Virus record (IMG/VR): IMGVR_UViG_3300023239_000006
Span: 1-64,000 of that record
DNA length: 64,000 bases
Strand: one strand, 5' to 3'
Source: an uncultured virus (IMG/VR IMGVR_UViG_3300023239_000006)
Lineage: Duplodnaviria > Heunggongvirae > Uroviricota > Caudoviricetes
The notes under the pieces are model-generated. The model did no database searches. It saw only the letters and a list, made by a program, of their open reading frames with translations, and had not been told where the DNA came from. Every line of letters begins with the position of its first letter. Position 1 is the stretch's first letter. Below are positions 26,889 through 63,714 of the stretch, piece after piece. The position numbers and the translations under genes are program-made.

Positions 26889-26902
26889 ATTTTATTCCGT
26901 AT

Positions 26903-27493
26903 TTAAATAAACATCATTTGATTAATTCTATAAGAATCGCCAACAAACCAATCAGGTTGCATTACTGCTGTATGTACATCAGTCTGTCTATATAATACTA
27001 ATCTATTAAACATCATTTCTGCATAACCTAGTTCCTGCCCGTTTTCAGAATAGAACGCAGTGCCGCCGCGTGATTCGTTGTTGTAATTTAAATATATCGA
27101 TGCTGCAAATCTTCCAGGATTTGCACTATCTCGATGAGGCGTTGGCTGGTCTTGTCCTTGCATTACATTTACTAAAAATGGCATGAAATTAAACGCTTCA
27201 CGTATATCGTTACTAGTCTTTCGAGGACCATCATTAAAATTCTCATTGATTAATTTAACAAATGTTTCTGCTAACCCTGTTAGATTAATTCCAAGACTGA
27301 TTGATAATCCTGGGTAAGTATTTCTAATCATGCTTTTTGATGCAGGAATAGAAAGGGTCAATTCTCTAATCTTTTCAGGATTAACATAAAAGTCATCAAC
27401 AATAACGCATTTGGAATCGCCTAATTGATGTACACATACTTTAAAATTAGGATTGATTGCAAATATGTCGCATTCATTTATTTTTTTAATCAT
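26903..27493 (-). CDS. 2OG-Fe(II) oxygenase (DUF6445-like)
   Basis: IVDDFY.NP, YPG, PHRD, YLN...GGTAFY, FNRLVLY...H, R..Q. Confidence 0.8.
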   Translation of the reverse strand: MIKKINECDIFAINPNFKVCVHQLGDSKCVIVDDFYVNPEKIRELTLSIPASKSMIRNTYPGLSISLGINLTGLAETFVKLINENFNDGPRKTSNDIREAFNFMPFLVNVMQGQDQPTPHRDSANPGRFAASIYLNYNNESRGGTAFYSENGQELGYAEMMFNRLVLYRQTDVHTAVMQPDWFVGDSYRINQMMFI

Positions 27494-29301: not shown

Positions 29302-29324
29302 TATTTTTCCTTGTAGCATTTATT

Positions 29325-40000: not shown

Positions 40001-41450
40001 TTTCAACTTGCTCACATGCGTATCGGATTGTTTTAAACGGCTTATCTAAAGTTTTGCCTTGTACTGGACTTGGTGCGTCGGAACCATGTGGTGCAACATA
40101 ATACACTTGGTCAGCAGCACCTAATGACACCCATTCTGGATCGTCTGCTCCTGCACGTAAAACTTGTCCTTCAGTACCAATTGGTAACCTAGTTGGGCCT
40201 GCTCCGCCAAAGTACACTAAATCGCCACGAGTAGTTAATACAGATACTTCTGTACCGATAGATAACAGATTCCAGTACGTACCACTAATATCTTGGTCTG
40301 GACGGCTGTTTACATTGCCGCCGCCTTGTGGATCATTGCCAATAGTTGATCCATCGTCTGCTTCAGATTTATGACCCAATACACAGATATAAGCATTTGA
40401 TCCGTAACGGACTGCATCTCCCAATTTGTATATAACATCATCTACCCACTCGGCTTGCCATGAAATACCAGAATTAAGTTTTTGCCAGTATGTTAAGTTT
40501 GGCGGTTCTTGATTTGTACTGTCTGCGGTGGCAATATATGTGTATCCGCGTTGGCTAATTACATTACCGACACGATAGGCAGTTGCACTACTCCATTCTG
40601 ATTCGAACGTAATGCCTTCACTAAATAATGACCAGATAGCAGTACTTGTACTAGGCGTTGCATTGAAATGGTTAGTTATTGCAATATATTGATTGCCGCC
40701 GTAACGTACAATATCACCTATCTGGTAGACTGTTGAACTGTTCCAATTATCTTCAAATTGTACACCCTCAACAAACTGACTCCAGTACGCGGAACTATCA
40801 GTAATGAAGTTAGTAGTAGAAATGTGTTTATCTATACAAATCCATAATCCTGCACCTTGTTTAACAATATCGTTAAGTTTGTAAAGTACTGAGCTTCCAC
40901 TCCATGCGCCTTTATATTCTAATCCGGCGTTAAACTCGTCCCAATTTGCGGCGTTGGCTTCTAATCCTAATAGTTCAGTAGCTGCTGAAGTATGTCCGGT
41001 CTTACAAACATATGTGTATGCGCCGGTTCTAACTAGATCGCCGATTTTGTATCGAGTACTAATTGTCCAGGTGTTTTTCCACTCGGTACCTTCAGCAAAT
41101 ACATCCCAATTGTCTGGCAAATTAGCTTCAAGCCCTAGTGCTAAGGTAGCAGCCGATGTGTGAGAATTTGTACAGATATATAAAAGAGCTCCGTATTTTA
41201 CAACATCGTTATCTTTATAAAATGTACCTACAGTCCAGTCACTTTTCCATTCTTGACCGTCTGTCATTTGATTCCATTTTGTTGGATTGTAATCAAGATT
41301 GGTATAGAAGTCGGCAGCGGCTGTGTGTCCTACAGTACAAATATAGGTTTTGCCGCCGTTTCTAACTACATCGTCAACATAATATGTTGTACCGGTGATC
41401 CATACATCTTTCCATACAAATCTAATTCTACCTAATTTAAATTCTGCCAT
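34074..41450 (-). CDS. Giant virion/fibre protein (2458 aa): carbohydrate-binding-like repeats, beta-helix and propeller regions
   Basis: Repeated W....Y..GD.V.YG...Y units; SPYVQ..T.FG; W.S..YG...FVAV repeats; paralog of the next gene. Confidence 0.75.
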   Translation of the reverse strand: MAEFKLGRIRFVWKDVWITGTTYYVDDVVRNGGKTYICTVGHTAAADFYTNLDYNPTKWNQMTDGQEWKSDWTVGTFYKDNDVVKYGALLYICTNSHTSAATLALGLEANLPDNWDVFAEGTEWKNTWTISTRYKIGDLVRTGAYTYVCKTGHTSAATELLGLEANAANWDEFNAGLEYKGAWSGSSVLYKLNDIVKQGAGLWICIDKHISTTNFITDSSAYWSQFVEGVQFEDNWNSSTVYQIGDIVRYGGNQYIAITNHFNATPSTSTAIWSLFSEGITFESEWSSATAYRVGNVISQRGYTYIATADSTNQEPPNLTYWQKLNSGISWQAEWVDDVIYKLGDAVRYGSNAYICVLGHKSEADDGSTIGNDPQGGGNVNSRPDQDISGTYWNLLSIGTEVSVLTTRGDLVYFGGAGPTRLPIGTEGQVLRAGADDPEWVSLGAADQVYYVAPHGSDAPSPVQGKTLDKPFKTIRYACEQVENGPRNPSAQRLLELNRVFIQREVTSWIDYQVANATSDSIWENFVYEDAKCARDIGFVVDRLQWDIGHGGNLKIRAAAQSLLGLLVDGPFSVAEEDAPYSTLSSETAQGIAAYNYLLVVVAAVLANQAPAVAYQNVTDDSTAIAGQFIDITLVAEAGVLTTITLLVAIITDALANPTQVGPLPTIPARYVPFTLINVATGQYRETLPIIVPANTCIQGDELRSTNVGPAGSLVDISDSYYSLSSLAHISGFIGNIVTGSTVTPTTGNIVAQSANWPFADVAENVAVTQLVDVIKLQSDYRLGTLHTTNLIDPVGYNAGYLAGYGNARKLIKENKKFLQEEVITYLKNSYSSLAFTGSIAGNVLTVTSVESGVVTNDALIHGESVIQGTRIDKQLSGATGEIGTYEVSKFQTVPSTIIKADTKYSRTANRRDTGYAIDAVIYDLTYGGNSQSVTAGLAYFDGDSADSTIAKSILSASFKPATLAGLAFLKTRMQAVALGSAFTPLQTVITPYTDTVGSAESSTLIGNSLDAIIEIIDTGPGAVGSTVTLSDPATTDGVSSTTALIGAYSALNSAAATIRANTISYINAQYPALTYDSAKCSRDIGIILKAVGYDFMLGNVAANNVSTNFKSIIAAQSYLRDNAAEVYTLGQKAVTIEAIEYARTQAIANVSSDATAIARINILMPLITTIIYSGSNEGNVCSTELRNRDYAILQLELNRSFIVAEVNAYIANTFSDTATAVTTNVITISDTSWLKRNAEIVFSGTTFGGITVGTRYYVQSVVSSTTFTVSTTRYGTAALFTDDTGSMAVNLAYNTESCARDVGTYIDALKWDLKYTSNYQSRFASRYYANAVLGSLEEDMYYLRDGTGLRDQTLVGLTGDMLAENEFGTSRVSAGAYASLDPGWGPNDFRTWIISRSPYVQGLTTFGNGAVGQKIDGALHNGGNDSIVSNDFTQVISDGIGAWITNNGRAELVSVFSYYAHIAYLAENGGRIRATNGNNSYGDFGSVAEGFDDRETPNTAVVDNILQFVATVGNVTTTGAQFIGLEFSNAGIDYTDAQFVLTGGGINATSEADEFRDDAVYQVRLVQLAEDGLNGEFGGSGYLTNSNTAQAGSTTQITLAATDSTISTGYIGMKVVITGGTGVGQFGIIDTYNTGTKIATIITESTGAAGWEHFVAGTTIASPDASTTYTVEPRLTFTAPSYASAAGTGLPTAGTYTDVKFASAVTTYLGVAGTGGTGTGATFNVIKKGTKYLVSIAAAGTGYVRLNTLTIAGTSLGGVSTTNDITITITAINSLSGAVLAVDTTGSGVGGNFVALLSGSATAETSIGGTWTSRTLSASRDWIAAASGQDITAITADSLVAGTAYKITVLGDSLFNTVGAVNNFVGTTFIATGATTGTGTVVAVNSIIVAIATGSNTTTRSVDGGINWTAGGNLPATTTWTSIAYGGGVWVAVATGGTANAYSTNGGLTWVAGAVLPASTTWTSVTYGAGKFVAVASGGTQAAYSINYGLTWVTAALPSSTNWKSVEFGNNRFVAVSSTSGTAAAFSLDGITWVASTIISAAYLSVAYGQGTFVAVGAGTTAASSPDGVVWTSRTISTSNSVAVVFGNTNRIGKFVTISNSGASNVSVITASTRARARAQVANGKIFAINILEPGSGYASLPTMTITDPNNIFEAPFTVRTGKGTLANPSFINRGIQYETASAEIGSGDGFADNYQTGSFVAVRQLATRPVAGSNVVFDGVPGVTFKLVNIVTFLGTNDGEYTAFLQISPQLTISQAPEHLEGVTTRLRYSQVRLTGHDFLDIGTGSFTESNYPNDPLQDPIPGNETVEADGGRVFFTSTDQDGNFRVGSLFAIEQSTGIATLNADAFNISGLQELNLGNVTLGGGSATITEFSTDPFFTADSDNIVPTQRAIKAFIASQIGGGGASLNVNSVTAGAIFISSNVITTVTGTPIKMNATFEFRGGVIGLPLAFNYFLN

Positions 41451-41495
41451 TTTCTACTCCGTATCTTATATTTATGTATCTGTTATTACTATTGT

Positions 41496-44400
41496 TTAGA
41501 ATGATTTATAAAACATAGTTTGTGCTAGTATACTGCCGCTGACGCCTGCAAACTCGCCTTCAAATTTTGCGAGTTTAGGAAAGATTATTTTTGACCCAGC
41601 AGTATTTCCCATTTTATCTGGACCTACTAGTACTGTACCTGCAATAAAACTTCCCACTGCAATTTCTGATCCACCAATACTTAATCTTCCTGCCAAGTAC
41701 GCACGAATTGCTCGTTGTGTAGGAACTACATTATTAGAATCTGCAGTAAATAACGAATCTGTTGAAAATTCCCTAACTACTGCTCCAGTACCTCCTACTC
41801 TAATACCACCCAAGGTCAATTCTGTCAATCCGCTAAAGTCAAAGAAGTCTGCACTAATTGTAACAGTACCAGTTGCCTGTTCTACAGCAAATAATTCGCC
41901 TGTTCTAAAATTACCTGATTGATCAGTACTTGTATAGAATACGCGGCCACCGCCTGTTTCAACAATTTCGTTTTCTGGAGAAGGTGTATAAAATCCTGAA
42001 TATAATAGTGGGTAATTAGTTTCTTGAAAATTGCCAGTTCCGACGTCTAAAAAGTCGTGTCCAGTAATTCGACATTGGCTATATCGTGATCTAATGGATA
42101 CCTGAGTATTGTGTTGTAGGTTATCTCTAACTGTAATTTCCGGACTAATTCGAATCCTTGCAGCAAGTCCTTGATCAGTTTGCCCAATTGGTGTAATTGC
42201 AACTAATGTGAAAATACCCTCGAGACCAGCAATAGTTAGCTGTGCGCCAGGTCCTGGATAATTTTCCAACTCGTTTATAACAATAAATTTACCGGACGGA
42301 ATAATGTCAGCGAATCCATTTCCAGCTATTGTAATTTTAGTAGAATTAGTACGATATCCCAACCCTCGGTTAATCCATGTTGGATTAGGTAATACTCCGT
42401 CTCCGACTCTACTTTCAAGTAGCACATCAGATGTATTATTTGGATCAATTAGCGTAATCGCAGGACCATCAAGATAGCCTGATCCCGGATCCCATAATCT
42501 AATCTCTGATATTTTGCCTGCTACAACAGTTGCTCTTCCTAACGCTCTAGCTCCTGTTAACACTTTGTTAAATTTATCAGTAGCCGCAGGAACTACTACC
42601 CACATTGGTGAACGTTTTCCTATAGACGAGTCTCTTGACGCAATGTAAGGATTTCCAAAGCCAACTGCTTCCCATGATTGCTCTGATGCTAATTCTCTGT
42701 TAGTCCAAACTATGCCGTCGAATGATGTTGCTGCGAAAGTTGTAGGTCCTGCAGTAGCATCAGCGCCGACTAATCGTGCTCCAGTATCGCCAATAGCAAA
42801 GAATACGCCTTGGGCGTATCTAATTTTCTTCCAATTGTGTGAAGTTGATCCGTCCTGACTTGGCATCGTTCCTGGATACCATTCTACTCCATCAAAGCTG
42901 TATCCGACGTCACCAGTAGATGATATTGCCACAAATCTATTATTGCCATATGCAATACTTTGCCAAGACTTGTTAGATGAGTCAGCAATAACATCCATTG
43001 TGCGAGGAGTCCATGTAATAATACCGTCTTCACTGTTATATACTCCAATTCCAACATAGTTTCCACTATTTGACAATGCTACAAATTTTCTTGCGCCGTA
43101 GGCTATGTCAACCCATTCGCTAAAACTTGAGTCGCCAAATTCTGGTAAATTAGTTGATGTCCAAGTAGTTCCGTTAGTACTAATAGCTCCTGCATCTAAA
43201 TCACCAGCAACTGCAACAAATATACCGTTACCGTAAACAACTGAGTTCCAAAGCCTACTTGCTGGCATCGTTCTAGCAGTCCATGTTATTCCGTCCAATG
43301 AACTAGCTGCGGCATTACTTCCTGTACGGATGGCTACAAATTTGTTATCGCCTGCGGCTGTACATTTCCAGTCTCCCGCAGTAGGTAAAGTAAATGATTC
43401 CCATGTGTCTCCGTCGCCGCTATAAAGGCCTGCTGTTCCGCCTGACGAGATAACAACAAATTTACCGCTTGATGCTTCGATGCCGTTTCCTGCTCCGAAT
43501 GTTCTCTGATCAATAGCTAAAATTGAGTTAGTGCTGTCATCACTAGCAGAAGTTACTACAAGTAACAAATCGTTTAATGGAGTTTCTCCGCCGATTTTTT
43601 CTCCAGTAATTATTAACTGGTCGCCAACAAGGTACCCTGAACCTGCCGTTGCAATATCAACAGTGTAATCTCTTCCAATTTTAGTAATAGTAAAAGTTGC
43701 GGCAGTTACTACTAGGCCATCACGACCATCGACACTGCCAGTGCCTGTACCGGCTGTTAACTCTGTATATGTTTCAGTAGTTTCACCGTAGGCAATATCA
43801 GTCCAAGTAGTACTAACAGGAGTAGTAACTTCAGCAGCAATGTACTGAGGAGCTGCAAAGATAATTCTTGGCTCTATTCGATATGTAGTTCCAGTAGTTA
43901 ACGGTATAGTTGCTGGCTTTCCCGGAACAACATGATCCCAGCCGGGCTGATCGTCACTTTCTCTATAAACTGTGAGAACTTTACTTGTATTATTGTAAGC
44001 TGTTACGTAACCATATTGTCCAGTACCTGGTCCGCTAGTTAACACAATTCTCATGCCTAGATAATTAGATTGTGCGTTTGGATCATTAGTTGCTAGAGTG
44101 ATAGTTGTTGCGTTTCCTGTTTGTGCGTTGTTCTGAACAATGATGTAGCCGCCGCCGCCGATATCCTGTGTGATAGTCTCACTGACATCTAAACGACGTG
44201 CTTCAAACACTGCGTCATCTCTAAATTCTTCAAATAATACTTCAGCGTCTACTCCAGCTCCTACAAAGGTAGCAGTTGCTTGTGTATAATCTTGTCCAGC
44301 ATTAGTCCACTCAAATATTTGAATCTCATCAACGAAGTCGCCGGCAAACGCCGATGATATAATTGCCTCGTTGGCTCTAGTACCAACTGCTGCTGCTACA

Positions 44401-47075
44401 GGTACTTCTGTTAGGTCAACTCCAGATGCAATGGCTCCAAACGTACCGTATGAACTGTTACCGTTAGTTGCACGAATAATTCCGCCGTTTTGAGTTAAGT
44501 AGCCAATGTGTGCATAATACGAGAAAACAGATACAAGCTCTCCTCTACCATTATTCGTAACCCATGCACCAATACCATCACTGATTACTTGTGTAAAGTC
44601 GTTAGATACAATAGATCTATTTCCGCCATTATGTAAGTTACCGTCGATCTTTTGCCCAGTACATCCAGTACCAAATGTAGTAACTCCTTGAATATAAGGA
44701 GAACGATTAATAATCCAAGTACGATTATCAGCTGGACCCCAGCCTGGATCTAATGATATATATGCTCCAGCAGTGGGCACTCTAAAAATATCAGCCACTC
44801 CTAACGGATTTAAGACTCCAGCTAACCCTGTTAATGTACAGTTTCTAACTCCAGTAGTATCGCGGCAGTAAAACATATCTTCAGTTGCTGAGCCTAATAC
44901 CGAATTACGATAGCATCTTGCTGCTAATTTTGATTTATAATTACCAGTATAGATAATGTCATACTTCCATGCATCAATGTATCTACTTAAGTCTGCTTTA
45001 ACTAGCTCGCTATCAAAATTGTAGTCTGGGTGAGTAAATTCAATAAATGCAACAGCTTCAGCAATTATGAACTGTCTGTTAGCTTCGAGAATACGCACAG
45101 CATTTACGTATCCAGCTGATGTAATCGCAACGTTACTACCGACTAATGTCGGATCAATTCCAGTTGAATTAACATAAAAATTAATATAATTTTTAATATC
45201 TAAAATTAATAGTTGAATATCAGTTGCGGCTTGTTGATCAGCTACTACCACCCCTGTAGAAGTTGATGTTGTAGAAATACCATACTCATCTATAACTGTT
45301 TCTGAAACTGTTTCAGTTAATATTACTTGATCTTTTAAATTTCCAACAGTTTTTGGCGGTATTAATTCTGTACCTCCAATTACTCCTTCAATTACTTGTG
45401 AAATTCTAGTTAACACTGCAATAGTGTAAGCACTATCTAATGCCAATGATGCAATCGGTCCAGCGGCATTTATCACAGTAGTTCTTAACTCTGAGCCTAA
45501 CACCACTGTTCTTGCAGGGACACTTATTGGCAAAATTTCATCGTATGTGCCAGCGCCAACTTTTACTGTAGATGTTCCGGCAAATCCGTCGTCTAGTTGA
45601 TCACAGGCAAATCTAATTGTGCGCCATGGTTTAAATTGACTGTTTCCTTGTTGTGGATCAGAGGTATCATCAGTGCCATTGATATCTACGTAAACAACTC
45701 TGTTAGCTTGTCCGAAGATTTTATAGATAACACTATCTGTATTGTTAATAGCAACTACCTGTCCAGGAGTTCCAATATTAACTGCTGCTGCGCCAAATGT
45801 ACTGCCGTCGCCTGCTGCGCCACGACTAAGATCATAAGTTAATAAATCTCCTCGAAGTCTAAGACCTGATTCAGAACCAGCTAATAGTACCAACTCCCAG
45901 TAGAAATATCCTGAGCCGTTATCTCCAGGATAATTCTGATCCGTTGACACATGCTCAGTTATCGATTTATATGTGCTTCCTAGAAAAATTACTAGATCGT
46001 TAGGAGAATAGCGATTGCCGTCAGCCCAAAAATTACGCCAGTTTTGGCCAACAGTAATAAGTTCCCAGTTTGTATCGTCTAGATAATCTAGACTACTGCC
46101 GTCGGCTGTTGTATCTAGTAATGCACTATAAGTGTTTCCGCCTCGGCGGACTAGGTCGCCTGTTTTATATAATCCAGTAACGCTCCAGTCGCCTCTAAAA
46201 TTAATATTCTTAGCTGCAATTTGCCAATCTATTGCATCAACTCTATCTTCTAATTGATAGATGCTGTTACTTGGATTGCTACCGTAATTATTAGTTAAAC
46301 TATAAAATAAGTACCCACCATGTTTAACCAAGTCACCGACTTGATATACCGTAGTAGTGTTCCACTCGTTACTAAACTGAAATCCTGGAAATTCAATTTC
46401 CCAATTTTCTTCTTGATTAAAGTTTAAAGTTGAGTCGCTGCCAGCAGTATGTCCTTTCTTACAACGGAATAATGTTCCACCAAATGTTGTTAGATCATTT
46501 TTACGATATCGAGTGCCATTTGCCCACTGTCCTACATATTCTACGCCGTCGTAAACAAGTTCCCACTTTTCTTGATCTGCTTCTAATCCGTCGCTAATTG
46601 AGCTTGCAGTATGTCCAGTAATAGCACGATACACAATACCATTGTATTTTACAACATCGCCTGCACCATACCGTGTACTATCAATCCAATCTGATTTAAA
46701 TGCTGAACCCTCAGTGTACACAATCCAATTACTAATATCGTCATCAAATATACTAGTTGAGGTATAGCTAACTGCACACAGATATAAGTTACCACCGTTT
46801 AATACGATGTCGCCGGGGTTATATAACGTAGATCCTGTCCAAGCTGAACGCCACGCATAACCGTCGGTCATTTTGCGCCATGCTGGTGTTGGATCTGTAT
46901 CGTTAGGATTTGCTAAAAATGTTTGGTCAGCAGCAAATGCCCCGGCAGTATGTTGTCTAAAACATACCCAAGAATAACCACCGTATTGTACTACATCATC
47001 TCTATTATACTCAGTTGAAAGAACCCATGTTCCTTTCCAGGTATATCGTAATCTACTGATCTTAAATTCTGCCAT
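41496..47075 (-). CDS. Giant virion/fibre protein (1859 aa), paralog
   Basis: Same architecture; shared MAEFK start and TGHDFLD.GTG.F / FTSTDQ.GNFR.G.LF..EQ.TG C-terminal block. Confidence 0.75.
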   Translation of the reverse strand: MAEFKISRLRYTWKGTWVLSTEYNRDDVVQYGGYSWVCFRQHTAGAFAADQTFLANPNDTDPTPAWRKMTDGYAWRSAWTGSTLYNPGDIVLNGGNLYLCAVSYTSTSIFDDDISNWIVYTEGSAFKSDWIDSTRYGAGDVVKYNGIVYRAITGHTASSISDGLEADQEKWELVYDGVEYVGQWANGTRYRKNDLTTFGGTLFRCKKGHTAGSDSTLNFNQEENWEIEFPGFQFSNEWNTTTVYQVGDLVKHGGYLFYSLTNNYGSNPSNSIYQLEDRVDAIDWQIAAKNINFRGDWSVTGLYKTGDLVRRGGNTYSALLDTTADGSSLDYLDDTNWELITVGQNWRNFWADGNRYSPNDLVIFLGSTYKSITEHVSTDQNYPGDNGSGYFYWELVLLAGSESGLRLRGDLLTYDLSRGAAGDGSTFGAAAVNIGTPGQVVAINNTDSVIYKIFGQANRVVYVDINGTDDTSDPQQGNSQFKPWRTIRFACDQLDDGFAGTSTVKVGAGTYDEILPISVPARTVVLGSELRTTVINAAGPIASLALDSAYTIAVLTRISQVIEGVIGGTELIPPKTVGNLKDQVILTETVSETVIDEYGISTTSTSTGVVVADQQAATDIQLLILDIKNYINFYVNSTGIDPTLVGSNVAITSAGYVNAVRILEANRQFIIAEAVAFIEFTHPDYNFDSELVKADLSRYIDAWKYDIIYTGNYKSKLAARCYRNSVLGSATEDMFYCRDTTGVRNCTLTGLAGVLNPLGVADIFRVPTAGAYISLDPGWGPADNRTWIINRSPYIQGVTTFGTGCTGQKIDGNLHNGGNRSIVSNDFTQVISDGIGAWVTNNGRGELVSVFSYYAHIGYLTQNGGIIRATNGNSSYGTFGAIASGVDLTEVPVAAAVGTRANEAIISSAFAGDFVDEIQIFEWTNAGQDYTQATATFVGAGVDAEVLFEEFRDDAVFEARRLDVSETITQDIGGGGYIIVQNNAQTGNATTITLATNDPNAQSNYLGMRIVLTSGPGTGQYGYVTAYNNTSKVLTVYRESDDQPGWDHVVPGKPATIPLTTGTTYRIEPRIIFAAPQYIAAEVTTPVSTTWTDIAYGETTETYTELTAGTGTGSVDGRDGLVVTAATFTITKIGRDYTVDIATAGSGYLVGDQLIITGEKIGGETPLNDLLLVVTSASDDSTNSILAIDQRTFGAGNGIEASSGKFVVISSGGTAGLYSGDGDTWESFTLPTAGDWKCTAAGDNKFVAIRTGSNAAASSLDGITWTARTMPASRLWNSVVYGNGIFVAVAGDLDAGAISTNGTTWTSTNLPEFGDSSFSEWVDIAYGARKFVALSNSGNYVGIGVYNSEDGIITWTPRTMDVIADSSNKSWQSIAYGNNRFVAISSTGDVGYSFDGVEWYPGTMPSQDGSTSHNWKKIRYAQGVFFAIGDTGARLVGADATAGPTTFAATSFDGIVWTNRELASEQSWEAVGFGNPYIASRDSSIGKRSPMWVVVPAATDKFNKVLTGARALGRATVVAGKISEIRLWDPGSGYLDGPAITLIDPNNTSDVLLESRVGDGVLPNPTWINRGLGYRTNSTKITIAGNGFADIIPSGKFIVINELENYPGPGAQLTIAGLEGIFTLVAITPIGQTDQGLAARIRISPEITVRDNLQHNTQVSIRSRYSQCRITGHDFLDVGTGNFQETNYPLLYSGFYTPSPENEIVETGGGRVFYTSTDQSGNFRTGELFAVEQATGTVTISADFFDFSGLTELTLGGIRVGGTGAVVREFSTDSLFTADSNNVVPTQRAIRAYLAGRLSIGGSEIAVGSFIAGTVLVGPDKMGNTAGSKIIFPKLAKFEGEFAGVSGSILAQTMFYKSF

Positions 47076-57646: not shown

Positions 57647-59350
57647 TTATACTGCTGGAGGTTCTTCTGCAGGTGCCTGGGCTGCTGCGCCTGCTTCGGC
57701 TGCTGCTGCCATATCATCAGGAGCTGTTTCATCTTGGGCGCCTAAATCAGCTGACATACCGCTTGGAGTAATACCTGCTGATCGCATCTCGCTTGCTGCA
57801 TCTGTGGATGCTTTTAGCTTGTTGCCGTTTTCTTCGCGCCATAATGTTTCGTTTTCTACAATCTCTTCCTGAGTAAGACCAAGATATCGTTTCATAGCAA
57901 AACGTTTGCTCATATGTGGAATTTCTTGCACCTGCGCAAACACTCCAACACGAGTAGTATCAAGTTCTGCTTGACGGTAAGCAGCAAAGTTTTGCGGAGG
58001 ATTAAATCTTAAGTCAAACAAACTTGAATCAATATTGATGCCTTGGTGCTGCATCCATAACTTAAATTCTAAGTCGAATGTTTCGACAACCATTGCCTGC
58101 AACCGTTCGCAGTACTTGTTAAATCGTAGTTCTTGAATGTATGCTGTGCCAACTTTGCCATCGGCAACTGAGTTACTTGATTCTTCAACACCTGTTGGCA
58201 AGTAAGCACTGGGAATTCTCAACGCACGGAATAACTTGTTAGTAAAGAAGCGTAAGTCAGTAATTTCACCTAGGTTAGTACCGCCTGGTAACGTTTCTAC
58301 TTTTGATCCGCGACCTTCTGCTGTCTGCGGAAAGAAATAATCTTCGTTAGTGCTTAATGGATTATAACTTGAGTCAACAATGTTTGAACCGCCGCCACTA
58401 GCACTAGGAATGCGGCGCTGCTGTATTTCGTTTTTAACACGTTCAACAAAGCTCATGGCCATGTGTGCTGGCATATTACCCACGTCAACATAGAAAATCC
58501 TACGTTCAGGCGCACGTTGAATACGATAGATAATAATTGCATCTTCCAGCAATTCTTTTTGCTTGTAAACTTTGAATACTGATTCTAGCAAGCTATTGCC
58601 GAAAGGATAGTTTCTATCTAGTCCTTCACTTAATGAAATATGCACAACATCTTTTGCATCAACGCAAAATTCGTTTGAAGCATTTTGAAAACGTGTACCA
58701 GGAGACTGTCCCATATCACCAACCATACCGCGTCCAAATCCGCCACCTGTGGTGTAAGAGCTTGTACCGCTAGGGCTAGTGTTAGATGTTCCGTGTGGAG
58801 TAACCGCAACTAGATTTGCAAAGTTGAAGTTCATATCTTTAATAACATACTGCTCAGGAACTTTACCTTCGCTTTCGTTTACAATAATTTTGCTTACTTT
58901 GGCAGCATCAACAAATAGCCATTTTTTAGTTTCAGGATCACGTACAAAGAAACAGTCGCCGTATTTGAATGCATTACGCACAATGCGGAATATACGTGTT
59001 TCAAATTGTTGTTGCTTGACCCACTTCTGCAGGCTGTCTTTAATTAGTTTAACTTCAGTGCTAGTCGGCTTGCCGCGGAAGTGTGTACTAAACGGTGTTT
59101 CGTTTTCTTTATCGCGCTGTGTACAAAATTCAGCAAGGATATCTAGTGCAGCGTTAACTTCACTGTCCATATCCATTGTGTCGTATTGAATATACTTTTC
59201 AATACGGTTCGGACTACCTGCGTATACATCTGGCAAGTAGCTTGAGTAATTAGTACGAGCTGGCCCGGGTCTCCCTTGGCCGCCCAATGGACTCATTGAT
59301 CCTGATTGATTCGATGTGTCTACTGGGGTGAAGTATTTTTTCCAACTCAT
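57647..59350 (-). CDS. 20: Portal protein
   Basis: EDAIIIYRIQRAPERRIFYVDVGNMP, EDYFFP, TLPGG.NLGEI.D. Confidence 0.97.
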   Translation of the reverse strand: MSWKKYFTPVDTSNQSGSMSPLGGQGRPGPARTNYSSYLPDVYAGSPNRIEKYIQYDTMDMDSEVNAALDILAEFCTQRDKENETPFSTHFRGKPTSTEVKLIKDSLQKWVKQQQFETRIFRIVRNAFKYGDCFFVRDPETKKWLFVDAAKVSKIIVNESEGKVPEQYVIKDMNFNFANLVAVTPHGTSNTSPSGTSSYTTGGGFGRGMVGDMGQSPGTRFQNASNEFCVDAKDVVHISLSEGLDRNYPFGNSLLESVFKVYKQKELLEDAIIIYRIQRAPERRIFYVDVGNMPAHMAMSFVERVKNEIQQRRIPSASGGGSNIVDSSYNPLSTNEDYFFPQTAEGRGSKVETLPGGTNLGEITDLRFFTNKLFRALRIPSAYLPTGVEESSNSVADGKVGTAYIQELRFNKYCERLQAMVVETFDLEFKLWMQHQGINIDSSLFDLRFNPPQNFAAYRQAELDTTRVGVFAQVQEIPHMSKRFAMKRYLGLTQEEIVENETLWREENGNKLKASTDAASEMRSAGITPSGMSADLGAQDETAPDDMAAAAEAGAAAQAPAEEPPAV

Positions 59351-59365
59351 TATATTATCCTATTA

Positions 59366-61954
59366 TTAGACGCTGGCAAATAAGTCACCGCTCAATCCTT
59401 GCTGCACTGTAAGCTGTCTATCTTGAACATCTTTCATGTTCATATTTACTTTTATTAACTGCTCCAACTTAGTATTTAAGCTAGCAAGTAATGATTCTGC
59501 TGATTCTTGAGTAGGTGCCGCAGCAGTAGCAGCGCCTCCTGAGTTCTTCATCTCTGCTTTGTCTGCTTTAGCTTTAACTTCAGCTTCTTTTTTATTTTCA
59601 ATATCTTTCTTTCCGGCTTCAGCTGTAGACATACCGCCTGATTTTGGTCCTCCGGCAATTGCTACTTCAGATTTCAACAAGTCTAAACTATTGTTTGTAT
59701 TAAAATTAGTCTTTGCTTGTGCTGCCTCGGCTTTATCGTTTTCAACACCAATTTTCTTAGTATGACTATCTTTTAGTCCAATAAGTTTTTTATCTATTTC
59801 AGTTTTCTTTTGCTCTCTGGCTTCTTTCTTTGTTTCACTGCTTCGTTCGTTAGCTACCCCTTTTCTTTCTGCATCTCTAACTTTTTCTTTTTCGTCTAAT
59901 GCTTGTCGTTCAGCTGCTACTTCTTGTTGTTTAAGTTTAACTGCTTTATTTGCATCACCAAATGTAATTTTATCAAGTACTGCTAAAAATCCGTCTTGCA
60001 ACAATAGAAAGAATCGTTTTAAATTATCTCCGACTGCATCAAGTGCTGTGCTAAATGACCAACCAGTATCATAGAGCTGTTTAAATCCTGCAATAAGTGC
60101 AACAACACCTGCAACTATACCAATAATTGGAAGAGTAAGCAAAGATAGTGCCGTTGTGGCTAAAAAGGATGCTGCAGATTGTGCTAGAGTTGCGGCTGTC
60201 GTTATAGCTAGATAGCCTCCATATATTGCTAATGCTGTACCTAATCCCAAAAATATTGGCATCAGATTATCAGCAATAAATGTTCCTATACGTTCAAACA
60301 TAGGCATTACATAGGTGCCTATTAGATTAGCAATGTCGTTAAACACGGGTACAACATAGTCGTTAATAGCTGATGCCATTAGTTGCAACACTGGAACAAT
60401 ATCTACCAACACAAATGCTGCCAAAGTTAGGAAAGCTGGGTACAGGCTATCTCTAATAAAGTTTCCAATACTTTCAAATATTGGTTTTAAATTTGTTACA
60501 AGATACATACCAACTTGTGTAATAATATCGCTAAAAATCATAAAGGCAGGTAACACATAAGTTGTTACTAGATCGGCAACAATTTTAAATGCTCCCATTA
60601 ATACATCAAGCATACCACTTCCAGCTAATGCCATTGAAAAAGCGTTTCCAATTTCTGCAAGACTTTGCTGAAACTTTTGCATCTTCTCATTCATCTTGTC
60701 AGTGTTCTTTGCAGCTTCGCCCTGTTGTTCCCCTGCTTTCTTCACACCGTCTGTGGCAATTTGGTAAGTGGCTGCAAGTGCATTAGTGGTTCCTGCAAGA
60801 CTAGCATCGGCTGCTGCTGCACTTTTAATATTTTTTAGATTCTTTGCACCCTCTTCCTTCATTTTATTGTTAAGAGCGTTACGTTCTGCATCAGTAACCG
60901 CTTCACCACGCTGCATCTTCTGTTGCATAGTAGTTAACATAGCCGCCGACTGAGGCAATTGCGCTAACAACTTTTGATTCTCTTCAGTAGTTGCTGTACC
61001 GTTGGCCAACATATCTTTGGTAAAGTTCTGCAACGGTTCTGGCAATCCGAGAACAGTATTTCTAAAAGACTTTTGTACTTCTTCGTTCTGTCCAGCCATT
61101 GCTGCTTGGAACTGTGCATCTTTAGCCAGTGTTGCTGCTTGTGCTTCTTTAGCAGAACGTTCTTCGCCGGTAATCTTTGCAAGGCCGTCCATCTCTTTTA
61201 GATATGTCCTTGCACCTTGTGCTAGTTGAGCATTAGTCTTACCGCCAGACAACCCTTGGCTTCTTAATAACGCACCATATCGAATAAGACCGCCATTAAT
61301 TTCTTGACTACTCATACCTAGTGCATATAACTCCGAACTAGTTGACCGTACTGATTTTGAAACTTGTGCAAAGTTTTTAGCACCATCTTCGGTAGTTGTA
61401 CCAAAGGCCATCAAGCCGGCACCGTTATTTTTAATTAATGATCCAAATTCTGCCATGTTCATGCCAGCTTGAGATGCTGATGCAGAGAAACTAGCCATGC
61501 TTCCACCGAAACTTGCTCCGCCGCCTGCGGCATTTACAAATGATTTAGTAACTCTATCAGCTGCGCCAGCAACTGCTCCAAATGCTCCACCTACTAGGCC
61601 GCCCACAATTGGTAACTGTTTAAATATATCAGCTGCATCTGTAATTGAACCATCTAACTGAGCGAACTGGCTAACAGTGCTGGTTAGTTTATTACCTAGA
61701 GTAAAGAACCCTCCAACAACACTACTGATACCAACTGTTAGTCTTTTAAAATGATCAGTGCTAGCTTTCCGGTTACCGTTATCTTCTTTCTGATTTTTAT
61801 TTCGATCTCTCTGATTCTTTTCGTCGTCTTTATTACCTTTTCCACCTTTCATTCCCTTAATAGCACTGACTAACTCTCGTAAGGTGGCTTCAGACGCTGC
61901 ATTCTTAGCTTCTACATTTCCTATGCCTGGTATATCAATTGTTACTGATGCCAT
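59366..61954 (-). CDS. Tape-measure-like protein
   Basis: 862 aa, Ala/Gly-rich helical with hydrophobic segments; divergent from the gp26-like gene. Confidence 0.65.
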   Translation of the reverse strand: MASVTIDIPGIGNVEAKNAASEATLRELVSAIKGMKGGKGNKDDEKNQRDRNKNQKEDNGNRKASTDHFKRLTVGISSVVGGFFTLGNKLTSTVSQFAQLDGSITDAADIFKQLPIVGGLVGGAFGAVAGAADRVTKSFVNAAGGGASFGGSMASFSASASQAGMNMAEFGSLIKNNGAGLMAFGTTTEDGAKNFAQVSKSVRSTSSELYALGMSSQEINGGLIRYGALLRSQGLSGGKTNAQLAQGARTYLKEMDGLAKITGEERSAKEAQAATLAKDAQFQAAMAGQNEEVQKSFRNTVLGLPEPLQNFTKDMLANGTATTEENQKLLAQLPQSAAMLTTMQQKMQRGEAVTDAERNALNNKMKEEGAKNLKNIKSAAAADASLAGTTNALAATYQIATDGVKKAGEQQGEAAKNTDKMNEKMQKFQQSLAEIGNAFSMALAGSGMLDVLMGAFKIVADLVTTYVLPAFMIFSDIITQVGMYLVTNLKPIFESIGNFIRDSLYPAFLTLAAFVLVDIVPVLQLMASAINDYVVPVFNDIANLIGTYVMPMFERIGTFIADNLMPIFLGLGTALAIYGGYLAITTAATLAQSAASFLATTALSLLTLPIIGIVAGVVALIAGFKQLYDTGWSFSTALDAVGDNLKRFFLLLQDGFLAVLDKITFGDANKAVKLKQQEVAAERQALDEKEKVRDAERKGVANERSSETKKEAREQKKTEIDKKLIGLKDSHTKKIGVENDKAEAAQAKTNFNTNNSLDLLKSEVAIAGGPKSGGMSTAEAGKKDIENKKEAEVKAKADKAEMKNSGGAATAAAPTQESAESLLASLNTKLEQLIKVNMNMKDVQDRQLTVQQGLSGDLFASV

Positions 61955-62022: not shown

Positions 62023-62889
62023 ATGAATCAAAATGTAAATATACCGCAAACGCCAAAATTAAATCCTTTGGCTAATTGGTATAGACAGCCTAAAATCTAT
62101 GTGAGATTGCCTAGTCAAGGTCGATTCTATCCCCCAGGTGCATTAGACGTTAGTGCAAACGAAGAATATCCTGTATACTCAATGACTGCCAAAGACGAGT
62201 TAATGTTTAAAACTCCTGATGCACTGTTAAGCGGGCAAAGTACAGTTGAAGTTATTAAAAGTTGTATTCCTGCTATTTTAGATCCCTGGGCAATGCCCAG
62301 TATTGATCTAGACTTTGCACTCATTGCTATCCGCATCGCTACCTACGGCGAAAACATGGAAGTTAGAGTAGACTGTCCACATTGCAAAGAAGAAAATACC
62401 TACGATATCAACCTGTCAGACTGGATTGGTATCTTTAGCCAATTTACTTACAATTCAATTGTAGAAGCTGGGCCGCTAAACGTGCATGTGAGACCTTACA
62501 ACTATAAAGAAGTTACAAAAGCATCAATTAAAACACTAGAGCAACAGAAGATCTTTGGCATTATTAACAATGAAGAAATCAGCGATGAACTAAAGTTAGA
62601 AAAGTTTGGTGAAAGTTTTGTTAGACTAACTGAACTCACAGTTGATATTATTGCAGATTGCATTACACATATTGAAACTCCAGACGGATCCACTGACGAT
62701 AAAGTTCAGATCAAAGACTTTATTAATAATTCATCTAAAGATGTATTTGAAGCTATCCAAACACACATTACTAAAATTAAAGATACTATAGAGTTTAAAG
62801 CAAAAGATGTCCAATGCGGAGACTGTCATAAGGAGTTCTTACTACCTGTGACAATGGACCAATCAAATTTTTTCGCAGTAAAATCTTAA
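62023..62889 (+). CDS. gp26-like baseplate hub / tail assembly chaperone
   Basis: NPL..WYRQPK..V.LPS.G, MTAKDE, IRIATYGE, CPHC and CGDC; start at ATG 62023 with SD GGAG. Confidence 0.7.
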   Translation: MNQNVNIPQTPKLNPLANWYRQPKIYVRLPSQGRFYPPGALDVSANEEYPVYSMTAKDELMFKTPDALLSGQSTVEVIKSCIPAILDPWAMPSIDLDFALIAIRIATYGENMEVRVDCPHCKEENTYDINLSDWIGIFSQFTYNSIVEAGPLNVHVRPYNYKEVTKASIKTLEQQKIFGIINNEEISDELKLEKFGESFVRLTELTVDIIADCITHIETPDGSTDDKVQIKDFINNSSKDVFEAIQTHITKIKDTIEFKAKDVQCGDCHKEFLLPVTMDQSNFFAVKS

Positions 62890-62913
62890 ACAGCCCTTTG
62901 CCGGAGATTTTAC
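62868..62913 (+). other. Putative programmed -1 ribosomal frameshift signal
   Basis: In-frame heptamer T TTT TTC (62868-62874); stem GTAAAATCT (62878-62886)/AGATTTTAC (62905-62913); -1 frame open to 63101. Confidence 0.7.
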
Positions 62914-63101
62914 AGATAGCCAAACGGATGGAGTCTGAGGTTAAGGGAATCAAGAAAGACGTTCTCAAAATGTGTTGGTACATGAGAGGTCTTTCTTATA
63001 GTGAAGGCATGAATCTAAGTCATGATGAAAGAGAAATTGTTGCTGAGATTATTAAAGAAAACTTAGAGACTACAAAGAAAACTAACTTACCTTTCTTTTA
63101 A
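62874..63101 (+). CDS. gp51-like / 'T'-type ORF, probably the frameshift extension of the upstream gene
   Basis: LKMCWYMRGLSYSE.MNLS.DER motif; no SD-linked start; -1 frame relative to 62023-62889. Confidence 0.6.
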   Translation, partial: RSKILNSPLPEILQIAKRMESEVKGIKKDVLKMCWYMRGLSYSEGMNLSHDEREIVAEIIKENLETTKKTNLPFF

Positions 63102-63105
63102 TCAT

Positions 63106-63133
63106 AAAAAAGCCTGCTTAAAGCAGGCTTTTT
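63106..63133. terminator. Bidirectional intrinsic terminator between convergent genes
   Basis: aaaaaagcctgct-taa-agcaggcttttt. Confidence 0.85.
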
Positions 63134-63147
63134 GTTGGCTGTATATA

Positions 63148-63714
63148 TTACTTTTGACGGAACAATGTAAAGCCTTCGGCAACTACTTTACCGCTATTAA
63201 CTTTACTTTGAGTCTGCATAGCTGGTTGAGCTGGTTGAGCTGCTGCTCTGCCAGTAACTCTAACTGGATTTTTGCGTACAGGAGCCGGCGCTGTCATTGA
63301 AGTTTGTAGCATAGCAAGAATTTTCTGTTTCTCGCTAGGCTTTAAAGTGGCAATGGCCTGCTGTGCTTGTTTGTACCCAGATGCTGCTGCCATTGGTGCT
63401 GCGTTCTTAGGAGCTGCTTTCTTAGGAGCTGCTTTCTTAGGAGCCGTAACTTTAGCATATTCATCGTCATATGCTTTTTTCACAGCTGGATCTTGTTCTG
63501 CATCTGGTTCTGCATCTGGAACATCACCTGCAATGTTTGCAGTAGAAGTAGCTTTACCTTTTTGGTACGCTTTCTTAACGCCACCTGCAATGCCGCCAAT
63601 CATACCAACGCCTTTAGCAACCCCGCCAATGCCCTTAGCTAGTCCACGACCAATAGCACCTAACGGTCCTTCTTCAAGTTCTTGTGATTCAGTTAAGATT
63701 TCAGTTAGTCGCAT
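63148..63714 (-). CDS. Hypothetical basic Ala/Lys/Pro-rich protein, possible internal head protein
   Basis: MRLTEILTES N-terminus; KKAAP repeats (15-bp units around 63400-63445). Confidence 0.7.
   Translation of the reverse strand: MRLTEILTESQELEEGPLGAIGRGLAKGIGGVAKGVGMIGGIAGGVKKAYQKGKATSTANIAGDVPDAEPDAEQDPAVKKAYDDEYAKVTAPKKAAPKKAAPKNAAPMAAASGYKQAQQAIATLKPSEKQKILAMLQTSMTAPAPVRKNPVRVTGRAAAQPAQPAMQTQSKVNSGKVVAEGFTLFRQK

What the first reader, a model, noticed from the sequence alone, without database searches (positions are those of the whole stretch)
62832..63101. Lambda G/GT-style programmed -1 frameshift in a T4-like phage, next to the tape-measure gene
Seen: the gp26-like ORF ends ...AAT TTT TTC GCA GTA AAA TCT TAA, placing a slippery heptamer T TTT TTC (62868-62874) in frame just before its stop. 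The -1 frame is open from 62832 to 63101 and reads RSKILNSPLPEIL... into the downstream ORF, which has no SD-linked start. A perfect 9-bp stem (GTAAAATCT/AGATTTTAC) begins 3 nt after the heptamer, closer than the usual spacer. The gene is divergent from the tape-measure-like gene. Known: many long-tailed phages make tail assembly chaperones gpG/gpGT by a -1 frameshift next to the tape measure; T4 gp26/gp51 are described as separate genes. Inference: this pair is a G/GT chaperone system.
Basis: partly seen in the sequence, partly recalled or inferred. Interest (0 to 1): 0.85.

Follow-up and report, generated by a model that had tools for sequence, protein, structure and literature searches.

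The report
Frameshift in baseplate-hub chaperone gene
One tail-assembly gene of this uncultured giant T4-related phage very probably makes a short and a longer protein because some ribosomes slip back one base on an invariant TTTTTTC, doing with one gene what phage T4 does with its two related genes 26 and 51.

Summary
The gp26-like gene (62023-62889, Pfam PF12322) carries T_TTT_TTC in frame at 62868-62874. The -1 frame is open to 63101, and a 10-bp stem starts 3 nt after the heptamer.

- **Conservation:** the heptamer, its register and a 55-75-codon -1 ORF are kept in 95 of 95 related loci that hold the gene end. These include PA5oct, Atu_ph07 and Rak2-like phages at about 30% protein identity. 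They also occur in 4 of 10 sampled T4-type phages, cyanophage P-SSM2 among them.
- **Coding frame:** codon periodicity switches from frame 0 to frame -1 exactly at the heptamer.
- **No conserved start:** 26 of 74 distinct sequences have no start codon in the first 20 -1 codons.
- **Stem:** it shows compensatory changes.
- **T4 link:** T4 gp26 and gp51 are both PF12322. The extension aligns to the gp51 C-terminal tail (hhalign 79%). Genomes with the slip site have one PF12322 gene; T4 has two.

Best reading: a programmed -1 frameshift makes a gp26-like short form and a gp51-like long form of a hub-assembly chaperone. This is lambda G/GT logic, not G/GT homology.

No paper or sampled GenBank record reports it. 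This scan has noted it before on other DNA.

The parts
62023..62889 (+). gp26-like gene, 0-frame product of 288 aa (short form), PF12322 T4_baseplate family
   Evidence: ORF. Pfam PF12322 E 1.2e-17; phrog_150 baseplate hub E 3.3e-22. AlphaFold model pLDDT 94.2. Phe283-Phe284 are nearly invariant in 103 sequences.
62868..62874 (+). Slippery heptamer T_TTT_TTC in the 0-frame register (AAT TTT TTC)
   Evidence: Present in frame in 95 of 95 related loci that hold the gene end. Entropy 0 at all 7 bases in 63 distinct sequences. The base before the Phe codons is always T although that codon encodes N, S, H, Y or D.
62878..62913 (+). Downstream RNA stem-loop: arms 62878-62887 and 62904-62913, 16-nt loop holding most of the 0-frame stop codon
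   Evidence: -10 kcal/mol in the window, z -1.73. Covariation on 63 sequences: 91.1% of cells paired, 4 pairs with compensatory changes, score 0.208 against 0.125 shuffled (0 of 500), slid controls at most 0.107.
62874..63101 (+). -1-frame extension, 75 codons plus stop. Joined after Phe284 it gives a predicted 359-aa long form (junction ...NFF|RSKIL...)
   Evidence: Codon periodicity follows the -1 frame from the heptamer on. Model pLDDT 90.6, helix-loop-helix. hhalign to the gp51 C-terminal tail: Prob 79.3%, E 1.5e-5.
59366..61954 (-). 862-aa tape-measure-like gene, divergent neighbour
   Evidence: ORF. No Pfam or PHROG hit. Atlas feature hits to tape-measure families at score 0.94, a lead only. 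The syntenic homolog in PA5oct is a virion protein by ESI-MS/MS according to its record.
57647..59350 (-). T4-type portal gene (context, conserved synteny portal / tape-measure-like / divergent gp26-like)
   Evidence: PF07230 E 1.3e-104. The same order is seen in PA5oct, Turkey5, Phosso, CBB, XaC1 and Kaldavass.
63107..63133 (.). Terminator-like hairpin just after the -1 ORF stop, between convergent genes
   Evidence: strand folding: -19.3 kcal/mol, z -4.69. The consensus scan did not list it.

Best explanation
The gp26-like gene is decoded in two ways.

Most ribosomes read the 0 frame and stop at 62887-62889, giving a 288-aa protein of the T4 gp26/gp51 family (PF12322). A fraction slip back one base when the two Phe tRNAs sit on TTT TTC. 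They re-pair on T TTT TT, read CGC next, and continue for 75 codons in the -1 frame. The result is a 359-aa protein with the same body plus a small helix-loop-helix tail.

A conserved stem-loop just downstream probably acts as the stimulator.

The long form corresponds to T4 gp51 (PF12322 body plus a homologous C-terminal tail, in one frame). The short form corresponds to T4 gp26. This phage therefore makes from one gene the pair that T4 encodes in two paralogous genes.

By analogy with T4 genetics and with lambda gpG/gpGT, the pair is taken to act as non-virion assembly chaperones of the baseplate hub and tape-measure complex, with the long form as the minority species.

**Shown here:** the signal, its conservation, the frame switch of selection, the stem covariation, the gp26/gp51 paralogy, the extension-to-gp51-tail similarity, and the one-gene versus two-gene distribution.

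**Inferred:** that ribosomes slip, the ratio of the two forms, and the chaperone function with its partners.
For: 1. **Heptamer conservation.** T_TTT_TTC is in frame in 83 of 83 loci, 14 of 14 loci of further lineages and 95 of 95 in all. Protein identity falls to about 30%.
2. **Synonymous sites frozen.** Entropy is 0 at the heptamer. The preceding codon is always NNT whatever residue it encodes.
3. **Periodicity switch at the heptamer.** Upstream, 0-frame positions 1/2/3 score 0.83/0.47/1.27 bits. In nt 7-27 after it, -1-frame positions score 0.91/0.54/1.17. In nt 27-110 they score 0.75/0.45/1.32.
4. **Contrast of the two frames.** The 0-frame tail after FF is short (1-12 residues) and unconserved. 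FFR (Q after FF in PA5oct, L in LG08 and Melnitz) and the following residues are conserved in the -1 frame.
5. **No conserved start.** 26 of 74 distinct sequences have no ATG/GTG/TTG in the first 20 -1 codons, and 56 of 74 have no ATG. Candidate starts lack Shine-Dalgarno pairing. In 12 of the 14 rows the -1 frame is closed by a stop 3-8 codons before the 0-frame stop.
6. **Stem covariation**.
7. **T4 paralogy.** T4 gp26 (E 8.8e-64) and gp51 (E 3.9e-52, residues 1-201 of 249) are both PF12322.
8. **Extension matches the gp51 tail.** The extension profile against the gp51 profile hits the gp51 tail: Prob 79.3%, E 1.5e-5. Three of three single comparisons also land on the tail. Annotators already label the small ORF 'gp51' or 'hub assembly' in P-SSM2, Melnitz and Cygsa01.
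9. **PF12322 copy number.** It is 1 in seven genomes with the heptamer (LPCS28, LG08, PA5oct, Turkey5, Atu_ph07, CBB, Vibrio 2.275.O) and 2 in T4 and Aeromonas asfd_1h, which lack it.
10. **In-frame database fusion.** One database protein (P0001) reads ...NFF|RSKIL... in a single frame.
11. **Literature.** Leiman 2010 Table 2 lists gp26 and gp51 as hub assembly chaperones (passage). Atkins 2016 states that G-T frameshifting is conserved in long-tailed phages 'except T4' (passage).
Against: - No protein or ribosome data exist. No RNA run holding the stretch was listed.
- The stem begins only 3 nt after the heptamer, less than the usual 5-9 nt. Its two outer pairs are the least conserved (15 and 9 of 54 cells unpaired), so the well-kept core starts 5-7 nt away. 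In the window itself the stem is weak (-10 kcal/mol, z -1.73, 12 of 200 shuffles as good).
- No common stem position was seen in the distant lineages.
- In some lineages an ATG overlaps the stop (Turkey5, Atu_ph07, Phosso, L089; Marzo has an annotated ribosome-binding site). Separate initiation could coexist there.
- Five of 10 sampled T4-type genomes lack the heptamer.
- The extension-to-gp51-tail match is moderate. Probabilities are 79% for profile against profile, and 63%, 18% and 0.8% for single sequences.
- Only 2 in-frame fusions were found against 765 stand-alone ORF calls. P0001 could be a homopolymer sequencing error.
- The CBB record calls the homolog a 'structural protein', which would not fit a non-virion chaperone.
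Confidence: 0.8

Rival explanations
1. Two separate genes. The small downstream ORF is translated on its own, by an internal start or by termination-reinitiation at the gp26-like stop, giving a free gp51-tail-like protein of about 8 kDa. The heptamer would be a by-product of the conserved Phe-Phe.
For: Gene callers and annotators treat it this way: 765 stand-alone ORF calls, and separate CDS in Turkey5, Vibrio 2.275.O, Phosso, CBB, XaC1, Kaldavass, P-SSM2 and Marzo. Cygsa01 and Vibrio K452 have an ATG overlapping the stop and no heptamer, so a free small protein can suffice. Several heptamer-bearing lineages also have an ATG at or near the stop.
Against: There is no conserved start. 26 of 74 distinct sequences lack any ATG/GTG/TTG in the first 20 -1 codons, although these codons are under -1-frame selection from the heptamer on. 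Window candidates have no Shine-Dalgarno pairing. Phe-Phe alone does not explain an invariant TTT TTC, or an invariant T before it across five different residues. T4 gp51 carries the tail fused to the body.
Confidence: 0.08
2. Transcriptional slippage. RNA polymerase adds one U on the T6 run, and standard translation of the edited mRNA gives the same long protein.
For: A one-base insertion in the run gives exactly the same junction (...NFF|RSKIL...). The single in-frame database protein P0001 would fit a slipped transcript or template as well as a fusion.
Against: The run is only 6 T. The efficient bacterial cases I recall use 8-9 or more (recalled, not checked here). The conserved stem lies downstream of the run, where it can act on a ribosome but not on a polymerase that has not yet transcribed it (inference). 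The run length never grows in 95 loci.
Confidence: 0.07
3. No recoding. The -1 ORF is a decaying or chance ORF and the heptamer has no role.
For: None beyond the lack of direct expression data.
Against: A 55-75-codon -1 ORF is kept, with protein-like periodicity, a confident fold (pLDDT 90.6) and homologs across very distant phages.
Confidence: 0.02

Closest known systems
Phage T4 gp26 (208 aa) and gp51 (249 aa), hub assembly chaperones (Leiman et al. 2010, PMC3004832, Table 2 passage seen)
   Same: Same protein family: PF12322 for the window protein, gp26 and gp51. The short form ends right after the conserved aromatic pair, as gp26 does. The long form carries a C-terminal tail that aligns to the gp51 tail.
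   Different: T4 uses two divergent paralogous genes and has no slip site: gp26 ends GAG TTC TTT GAG..., and gene 25 follows. Here one gene plus a -1 frameshift is predicted to give both forms. The window protein is longer (288 against 208 aa) and only distantly similar (hhalign Prob 35% to the single gp26 sequence).
Lambda gpG/gpGT and the conserved -1 frameshift of tail assembly chaperone genes in long-tailed phages (Xu, Hendrix and Duda 2004, recalled; Atkins et al. 2016, PMC5009743, passages seen)
   Same: A slip near the 3' end of a non-virion assembly gene beside the tape-measure gene yields a short product and a C-terminally extended product that share their N-terminal body.
   Different: No sequence homology was detected (no chaperone family in Pfam). 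The protein is about twice the size of gpG and has two CxxC pairs. The gene is divergent from the tape-measure-like gene and far from the tube gene (12093-12731). A downstream stem is conserved, whereas the lambda site is described as lacking a stimulator (PMC5009743 passage). Binding partners are untested.
Cyanophage 'gp26' plus small 'gp51' gene pair (P-SSM2 record AY939844, annotation seen)
   Same: Same arrangement. P-SSM2 also has AGT TTT TTC GTA TAA, and the 'gp51' ORF lies in the -1 frame.
   Different: It is annotated as two independent genes starting at an ATG. No frameshift is annotated.
Phage P1 PmgB, proposed tape-measure chaperone (PMC9024508, passages seen)
   Same: Weak PHROG similarity (phrog_1854, E 2.3e-4). 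PmgB is essential for tail formation, was not detected in virions, and lies next to the tape-measure gene sit.
   Different: The similarity is below a safe threshold, and no frameshift was examined here.

Membership tests
Programmed -1 ribosomal frameshift site | X_XXY_YYZ heptamer in the 0-frame register | tested here: met
   T_TTT_TTC at 62868-62874. Same register in 95 of 95 related loci.
Programmed -1 ribosomal frameshift site | Long open -1 frame under protein-coding selection starting at the slip site | tested here: met
   75 codons. -1-frame periodicity holds from nt 7 after the heptamer. The ORF is kept in all lineages.
Programmed -1 ribosomal frameshift site | Slip site conserved at synonymous positions | tested here: met
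   Entropy 0 at the 7 bases against 1-1.9 bits at neighbouring third positions.
Programmed -1 ribosomal frameshift site | Downstream RNA structure at a stimulatory distance (usually 5-9 nt) | tested here: inconclusive
   The stem has covariation in the window's clade, but its first pair is 3 nt from the heptamer. The well-conserved core begins 5-7 nt away. No common structure was seen in distant lineages.
Programmed -1 ribosomal frameshift site | Transframe protein detected | not testable with these tools
   No RNA holder was listed and no proteomics are at hand.
PF12322 T4_baseplate (T4 gp26/gp51 family) | Match to the family model above the curated cut-off | tested here: met
   64.7 bits against a cut-off of 24.5. 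T4 gp26 scores 215.6 bits and gp51 177.5 bits.
T4 gp51-type long form (PF12322 body plus C-terminal tail) | C-terminal tail homologous to the gp51 tail | tested here: met
   hhalign A7 against A6: Prob 79.3%, E 1.5e-5, extension 39-73 on gp51 223-257. Single sequences also map to the tail, with Prob 62.7, 17.7 and 0.8%. Support is moderate. The Pfam tail family PF28602 seen on gp51 homologs is not in the local library, and no extension homolog carried it.
Lambda gpG/gpGT tail assembly chaperones | Two products with a common N-terminus made by a slip near the 3' end | tested here: met
   Predicted from the sequence signals above. Not shown at the protein level.
Lambda gpG/gpGT tail assembly chaperones | Sequence membership in a tail assembly chaperone family | tested here: not met
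   Pfam scan to E 0.1 lists only PF12322 and zinc-ribbon noise. PHROGs gives baseplate hub.
Lambda gpG/gpGT tail assembly chaperones | Shared fold with solved chaperones | tested here: inconclusive
   Foldseek pdb gave no match at E <= 0.001. VIA lists were filled by the helical hairpin 144-253, Z at most 7.8. The N-terminal part was barely tested.
Lambda gpG/gpGT tail assembly chaperones | Gene pair lies between the tube gene and the tape-measure gene on the same strand | tested here: not met
   Tube at 12093-12731. The gp26-like gene is divergent from the tape-measure-like gene.
Lambda gpG/gpGT tail assembly chaperones | Short form binds the tape measure, extension binds the tube protein, both absent from virions | not testable with these tools
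The PA5oct record flags its neighbours but not this gene as ESI-MS/MS virion proteins. The CBB record says 'structural protein'.

The most novel reading that the evidence does not exclude
The -1 frameshift in the PF12322 gene is the ancestral state of the whole T4-related supergroup: giant phages, cyanophages and several T4-like genera. T4 itself hard-wired the two reading outcomes into paralogous genes 26 (short) and 51 (long) after a duplication. The 'catalytic', sub-stoichiometric gp51 would then be the counterpart of lambda gpGT. The one stated exception ('except T4') to the tail-chaperone frameshift rule of long-tailed phages would disappear, even though the protein family is unrelated to gpG.
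Probability: 0.5. Interest if true: 0.85.

Novelty: new variant of a known kind. Interest (0 to 1): 0.8.

Why it matters
**Closing a stated exception.** Tail-chaperone frameshifting is treated as near universal in long-tailed phages, with T4 as the stated exception (PMC5009743). These data suggest that T4's relatives use the same trick in an unrelated protein family, and that T4 replaced it with two genes.

**A testable role for gp26 and gp51.** This is a long-standing puzzle of T4 hub assembly. [quoted passage not shown] The prediction is that the two proteins are the short and long forms of one chaperone, needed in unequal amounts.

**Annotation.** Hundreds of 'hypothetical' ORFs of 67-95 aa (765 at E <= 0.001) and the cyanophage 'gp51' genes are probably frameshift extensions.

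**Recoding.** It adds a deeply conserved U_UUU_UUC site with a covarying stem to the bacterial and phage recoding catalogue.

Tried and rejected
- (coordinates one base off) were corrected. (term too short) was corrected.
- **DNA search.** blastn of the locus against phage records found no match. All comparisons had to go through protein.
- **Relatives in IMG/VR.** Single-protein scans gave only a few extra lineages.
- **Extension against T4 proteins.** Against single T4 gp51 the extension profile gave a spurious hit at residues 33-65, Prob 2%. Against gp28, Prob 0.2%. The gp51-tail match appeared only with profiles.
- **Family scans of the extension.** Pfam found nothing credible. A PHROG scan of a wider extension set failed on a coordinate error and was not repeated. 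The 67-aa version had no PHROG hit.
- **Fold searches.**
  - Extension: PDB Foldseek best E 3.1. VIA wide best Z 5.7 to bHLH domains, a generic helix-loop-helix. BFVD gave only uncharacterised phage proteins of about 72 aa (E 0.011), with 'tape measure chaperone' rows at E 3-5, which is noise.
  - gp26-like model: no PDB match. No sequence relative has a solved structure. No tail assembly chaperone appeared in these lists.
- **Complex prediction.** The extension with the tail tube protein gave no support: score 0.00, mark 0.32, controls not run. This is no evidence either way.
- **Expression.** No RNA holder was listed. Only DNA contigs could be laid.
- **Terminator scan.** It listed none, although folding shows a strong hairpin.
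- **Literature.** Searches found no paper describing a frameshift in gp26-like genes or the gp26/gp51 short-and-long relation. PRFect (PMC10885494) has no mention of baseplate or jumbo phages. Subscription journals and supplements were not searched.
Full report
**What is there**

Window 62023-62889 (+) encodes a 288-aa protein of Pfam PF12322 'T4_baseplate' (E 1.2e-17) and phrog_150 'baseplate hub'. It ends AAT TTT TTC GCA GTA AAA TCT TAA. This places T_TTT_TTC (62868-62874) in the X_XXY_YYZ register, 13 nt before the stop.

The -1 frame is open from 62832 to 63101. A slip on the two Phe codons would continue with CGC (Arg) at 62874.

A 10-bp stem (62878-62887 with 62904-62913, 16-nt loop) starts 3 nt after the heptamer.

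The gene is divergent from an 862-aa gene (59366-61954, minus strand), which follows a T4-type portal gene (PF07230, E 1.3e-104). The 862-aa protein has no family hit. The Atlas places tape-measure families near it only at lead level (score 0.94).

The rest of the window holds sheath, tube, terminase, capsid, protease and tail-fibre genes of a T4-related phage. The record is a 126.6-kb fragment estimated 36% complete.

Contigs of four runs cover 62700-63150 without indels.

**Conservation of the signal**

Relatives came from IMG/VR (360 confirmed, the best 80 kept, 58-100% identity) and from GenBank phage records (95 records, all under 60% identity, from the Rak2-like, PA5oct-like and Atu_ph07-like giant phages).

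- In 83 of 83 sources (window, 80 IMG/VR loci, Atu_ph07, PA5oct) the gene has T_TTT_TTC in frame close to its stop. The -1 ORF runs 68-74 codons past the stop. Three loci are cut by a contig end.
- Fourteen of 14 rows covering further lineages show the same: two Rak2-like loci, CBB, XaC1, Kaldavass, Phosso, Vibrio phage 2.275.O and two IMG/VR lineages, with Atu_ph07 and PA5oct repeated.
- Overall, 95 of 95 loci that hold the 3' end have it. L088 is truncated and T4 was set aside.
- The codon before the Phe pair encodes N, S, H, Y or D but always ends in T.
- The 0-frame tail after FF varies from 1 to 12 residues with no conservation. The -1 reading FFR... is conserved, with Q in place of R in PA5oct.
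- Among the 150 best of 1305 cluster representatives of the family, 133 end 0-17 residues after an FF pair, 127 of them within 6. Most of the other 17 are fragments. None is a body-plus-extension fusion.

**Selection switches frame at the heptamer**

In 63 distinct sequences of the window's clade, all seven heptamer bases have zero entropy. The table gives column entropy by codon position.

| Region | Frame used | Position 1 | Position 2 | Position 3 |
|---|---|---|---|---|
| Upstream of the heptamer | 0 | 0.83 | 0.47 | 1.27 |
| nt 7-27 after it | -1 | 0.91 | 0.54 | 1.17 |
| nt 27-110 after it | -1 | 0.75 | 0.45 | 1.32 |

**No conserved independent start**

- 26 of 74 distinct site sequences have no ATG, GTG or TTG in the first 20 -1 codons. 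56 of 74 have no ATG there.
- Candidate starts in the window have no Shine-Dalgarno pairing.
- In 12 of the 14 rows a -1-frame stop lies 3-8 codons before the 0-frame stop.
- Some lineages do have an ATG at or overlapping the stop (Turkey5, Atu_ph07, Phosso, L089, Marzo). A separate start may coexist there.

**The stem**

On the 63-sequence alignment, the 10-bp helix has 91.1% of cells paired. Four pairs show compensatory changes. For example, columns 21-48 read GC 35, AU 17, GU 2, with none unpaired. These are synonymous sites of the -1 frame.

For the whole structure tested (this helix plus a 3-pair outer extension) the covariation score is 0.208 against 0.125 in shuffles (0 of 500 reach it). 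Slid controls reach at most 0.107.

The two outermost pairs are the least kept, so the conserved core begins 5-7 nt after the heptamer. This softens the short-spacer oddity.

In the window the stem is thermodynamically modest (-10 kcal/mol, z -1.73). Distant lineages show hairpins at varying distances with no common register.

A stem that lies downstream fits a ribosomal mechanism better than a transcriptional one.

**Link to T4**

T4 gp26 ends ...KEFFELL, with GAG TTC TTT GAG and no slippery run. Gene 25 follows at once.

Both T4 gp26 (E 8.8e-64) and T4 gp51 (E 3.9e-52, residues 1-201 of 249) match PF12322. They are adjacent, divergent paralogs.

gp51 has about 48 extra C-terminal residues. 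Its homologs carry a second Pfam family, PF28602, in precomputed annotation.

- A profile of 22 diverse extensions against a profile of 41 gp51 proteins aligns extension 39-73 to gp51 223-257, the tail. Prob is 79.3% and E 1.5e-5.
- The -1 ORF of LPCS28 aligns without gaps to gp51 200-252, starting at the junction (Prob 17.7%).
- The Cygsa01 small ORF aligns to 209-252 (Prob 62.7%).
- The Turkey5 extension aligns to 222-250 (Prob 0.8%).
- Annotators of P-SSM2, Melnitz and Cygsa01 already call the small ORF gp51 or 'hub assembly'.

**Distribution**

The table lists the ten T4-type genomes sampled through gp26-type tblastn hits.

| Genomes | State of the gene end |
|---|---|
| LG08, LPCS28, P-SSM2, Marzo | T_TTT_TTC plus a -1 tail ORF |
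| Melnitz | T_TTT_TTT directly before the stop |
| Cygsa01, Vibrio K452 | No heptamer; ATG overlapping the stop |
| PhiSH19 | Neither a heptamer nor an obvious start |
| T4, Aeromonas asfd_1h | No heptamer and no tail ORF |

PF12322 copy number is 2 in T4 and asfd_1h. It is 1 in LPCS28, LG08, Cygsa01, PA5oct, Turkey5, Atu_ph07, CBB and Vibrio 2.275.O. The other five sampled genomes were not counted. So, where tested, one gene with a slip site or a separate tail ORF alternates with two paralogs.

**Fusions**

A search for longer proteins containing the extension gave two hits.

- P0001 is a partial protein from one 1.7-kb contig that reads the predicted junction in one frame.
- P0002 joins the second zinc-ribbon directly to the extension.

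Against these stand 765 stand-alone ORF calls of 41-132 aa. The rarity of fusions fits a need for both forms. P0001 could also be a homopolymer error.

**Structure and partners**

The body folds confidently (pLDDT 94.2). The extension folds as a helix-loop-helix (pLDDT 90.6).

Neither has a convincing solved relative. I therefore could not reproduce the statement in two earlier notes of this scan that the body folds like lambda-type chaperones. My lists were dominated by the helical hairpin at residues 144-253, and the N-terminal part stayed barely tested.

**Function**

The chaperone role is inferred.

- Leiman et al. 2010 list gp26 and gp51 as hub assembly chaperones and say gp51 is required but absent from the particle (passages).
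- The PA5oct record flags the portal and the tape-measure-like neighbour, but not this gene, as virion proteins.
- The CBB record calls its homolog 'structural protein' on an unstated basis.
- The synteny portal / tape-measure-like / divergent gp26-like is kept in six giant phages. It is not kept in Atu_ph07 or Vibrio 2.275.O.

**Comparison and novelty**

The site works like lambda G/GT: a slip near the stop of an assembly gene beside the tape measure, giving two nested products. It fails membership in that family on sequence and on gene position.

Atkins et al. 2016 write that G-T frameshifting is conserved among long-tailed phages 'except T4' (passage).

None of my literature searches found a description of this frameshift or of the gp26/gp51 short-and-long relation. 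None of the 16 GenBank records I opened that carry the heptamer annotates it.

The scan's own notebook holds 180 notes with these words in at least 163 genomes, and the eight shown reach the same reading. I saw them, so they agree with my reading and did not found it. The 'except T4' pointer came from them, and I checked it.

**Verdict**

This is a real, deeply conserved recoding signal. It is very probably a programmed -1 ribosomal frameshift that makes gp26-like and gp51-like forms of a baseplate-hub chaperone. It is a new variant of the known tail-chaperone frameshift theme and awaits protein-level proof.

Noticed in passing
window 63107-63133: A 12-bp GC-cored hairpin flanked by A and T runs sits just after the -1 ORF stop, between convergent genes (-19.3 kcal/mol, z -4.69). 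It looks like a bidirectional terminator, but the consensus scan listed none.
   Followed up: partly
window 63148-63714 (-): A 188-aa ORF rich in Ala, Lys, Pro and Gly, with the tandem motif KKAAP repeated. It has no Pfam or PHROG family.
   Followed up: no
window 19865-20413 (+): A GIY-YIG-type homing endonuclease gene (phrog_314, E 1.6e-27) is wedged between a virion structural gene and a sheath-like gene.
   Followed up: no
window 24923-29319 (-): A Nol-like carbamoyltransferase (609 aa) and two 2OG-Fe(II) oxygenase genes lie inside the structural gene block, next to tail-fibre genes.
   Followed up: no
window 34074-47075 (-): Two very large tail-fibre-like genes (2458 and 1859 aa) share phrog_9851.
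   Followed up: no
L190 (Salmonella phage PhiSH19) around 1290-1460: In this Vi01-like phage the gp26-type gene ends GAG ATT TTC ATT TAA. The homologous tail ORF is in the -1 frame, with no canonical heptamer, no ATG at the conserved position and no annotated CDS. How the tail is expressed there is unexplained.
   Followed up: no
L192 (Methylophilales phage Melnitz) around 1185-1196: The slip site is T_TTT_TTT followed directly by TAA, and the -1 reading gives FFLIAL... This is a variant heptamer with the stop codon as the next codon.
   Followed up: no
P0002 (metagenome protein, 274 aa): An in-frame protein joins the second zinc-ribbon of the PF12322 body straight to the extension. The junction region of about 25 residues and the slip site are missing. 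It comes from a single contig, so it may be a natural deletion or a chimera.
   Followed up: no
P0305 (67-aa homolog of the extension): One source names this small ORF 'mRNA-degrading endonuclease RelE', which looks like a mis-annotation of the frameshift extension.
   Followed up: no
window 10953-12029 (-): A second, longer tube-like protein (358 aa; phrog_4542 and phrog_13438, E about 3e-12) lies next to the tube gene. It may be a tube initiator or cap.
   Followed up: no
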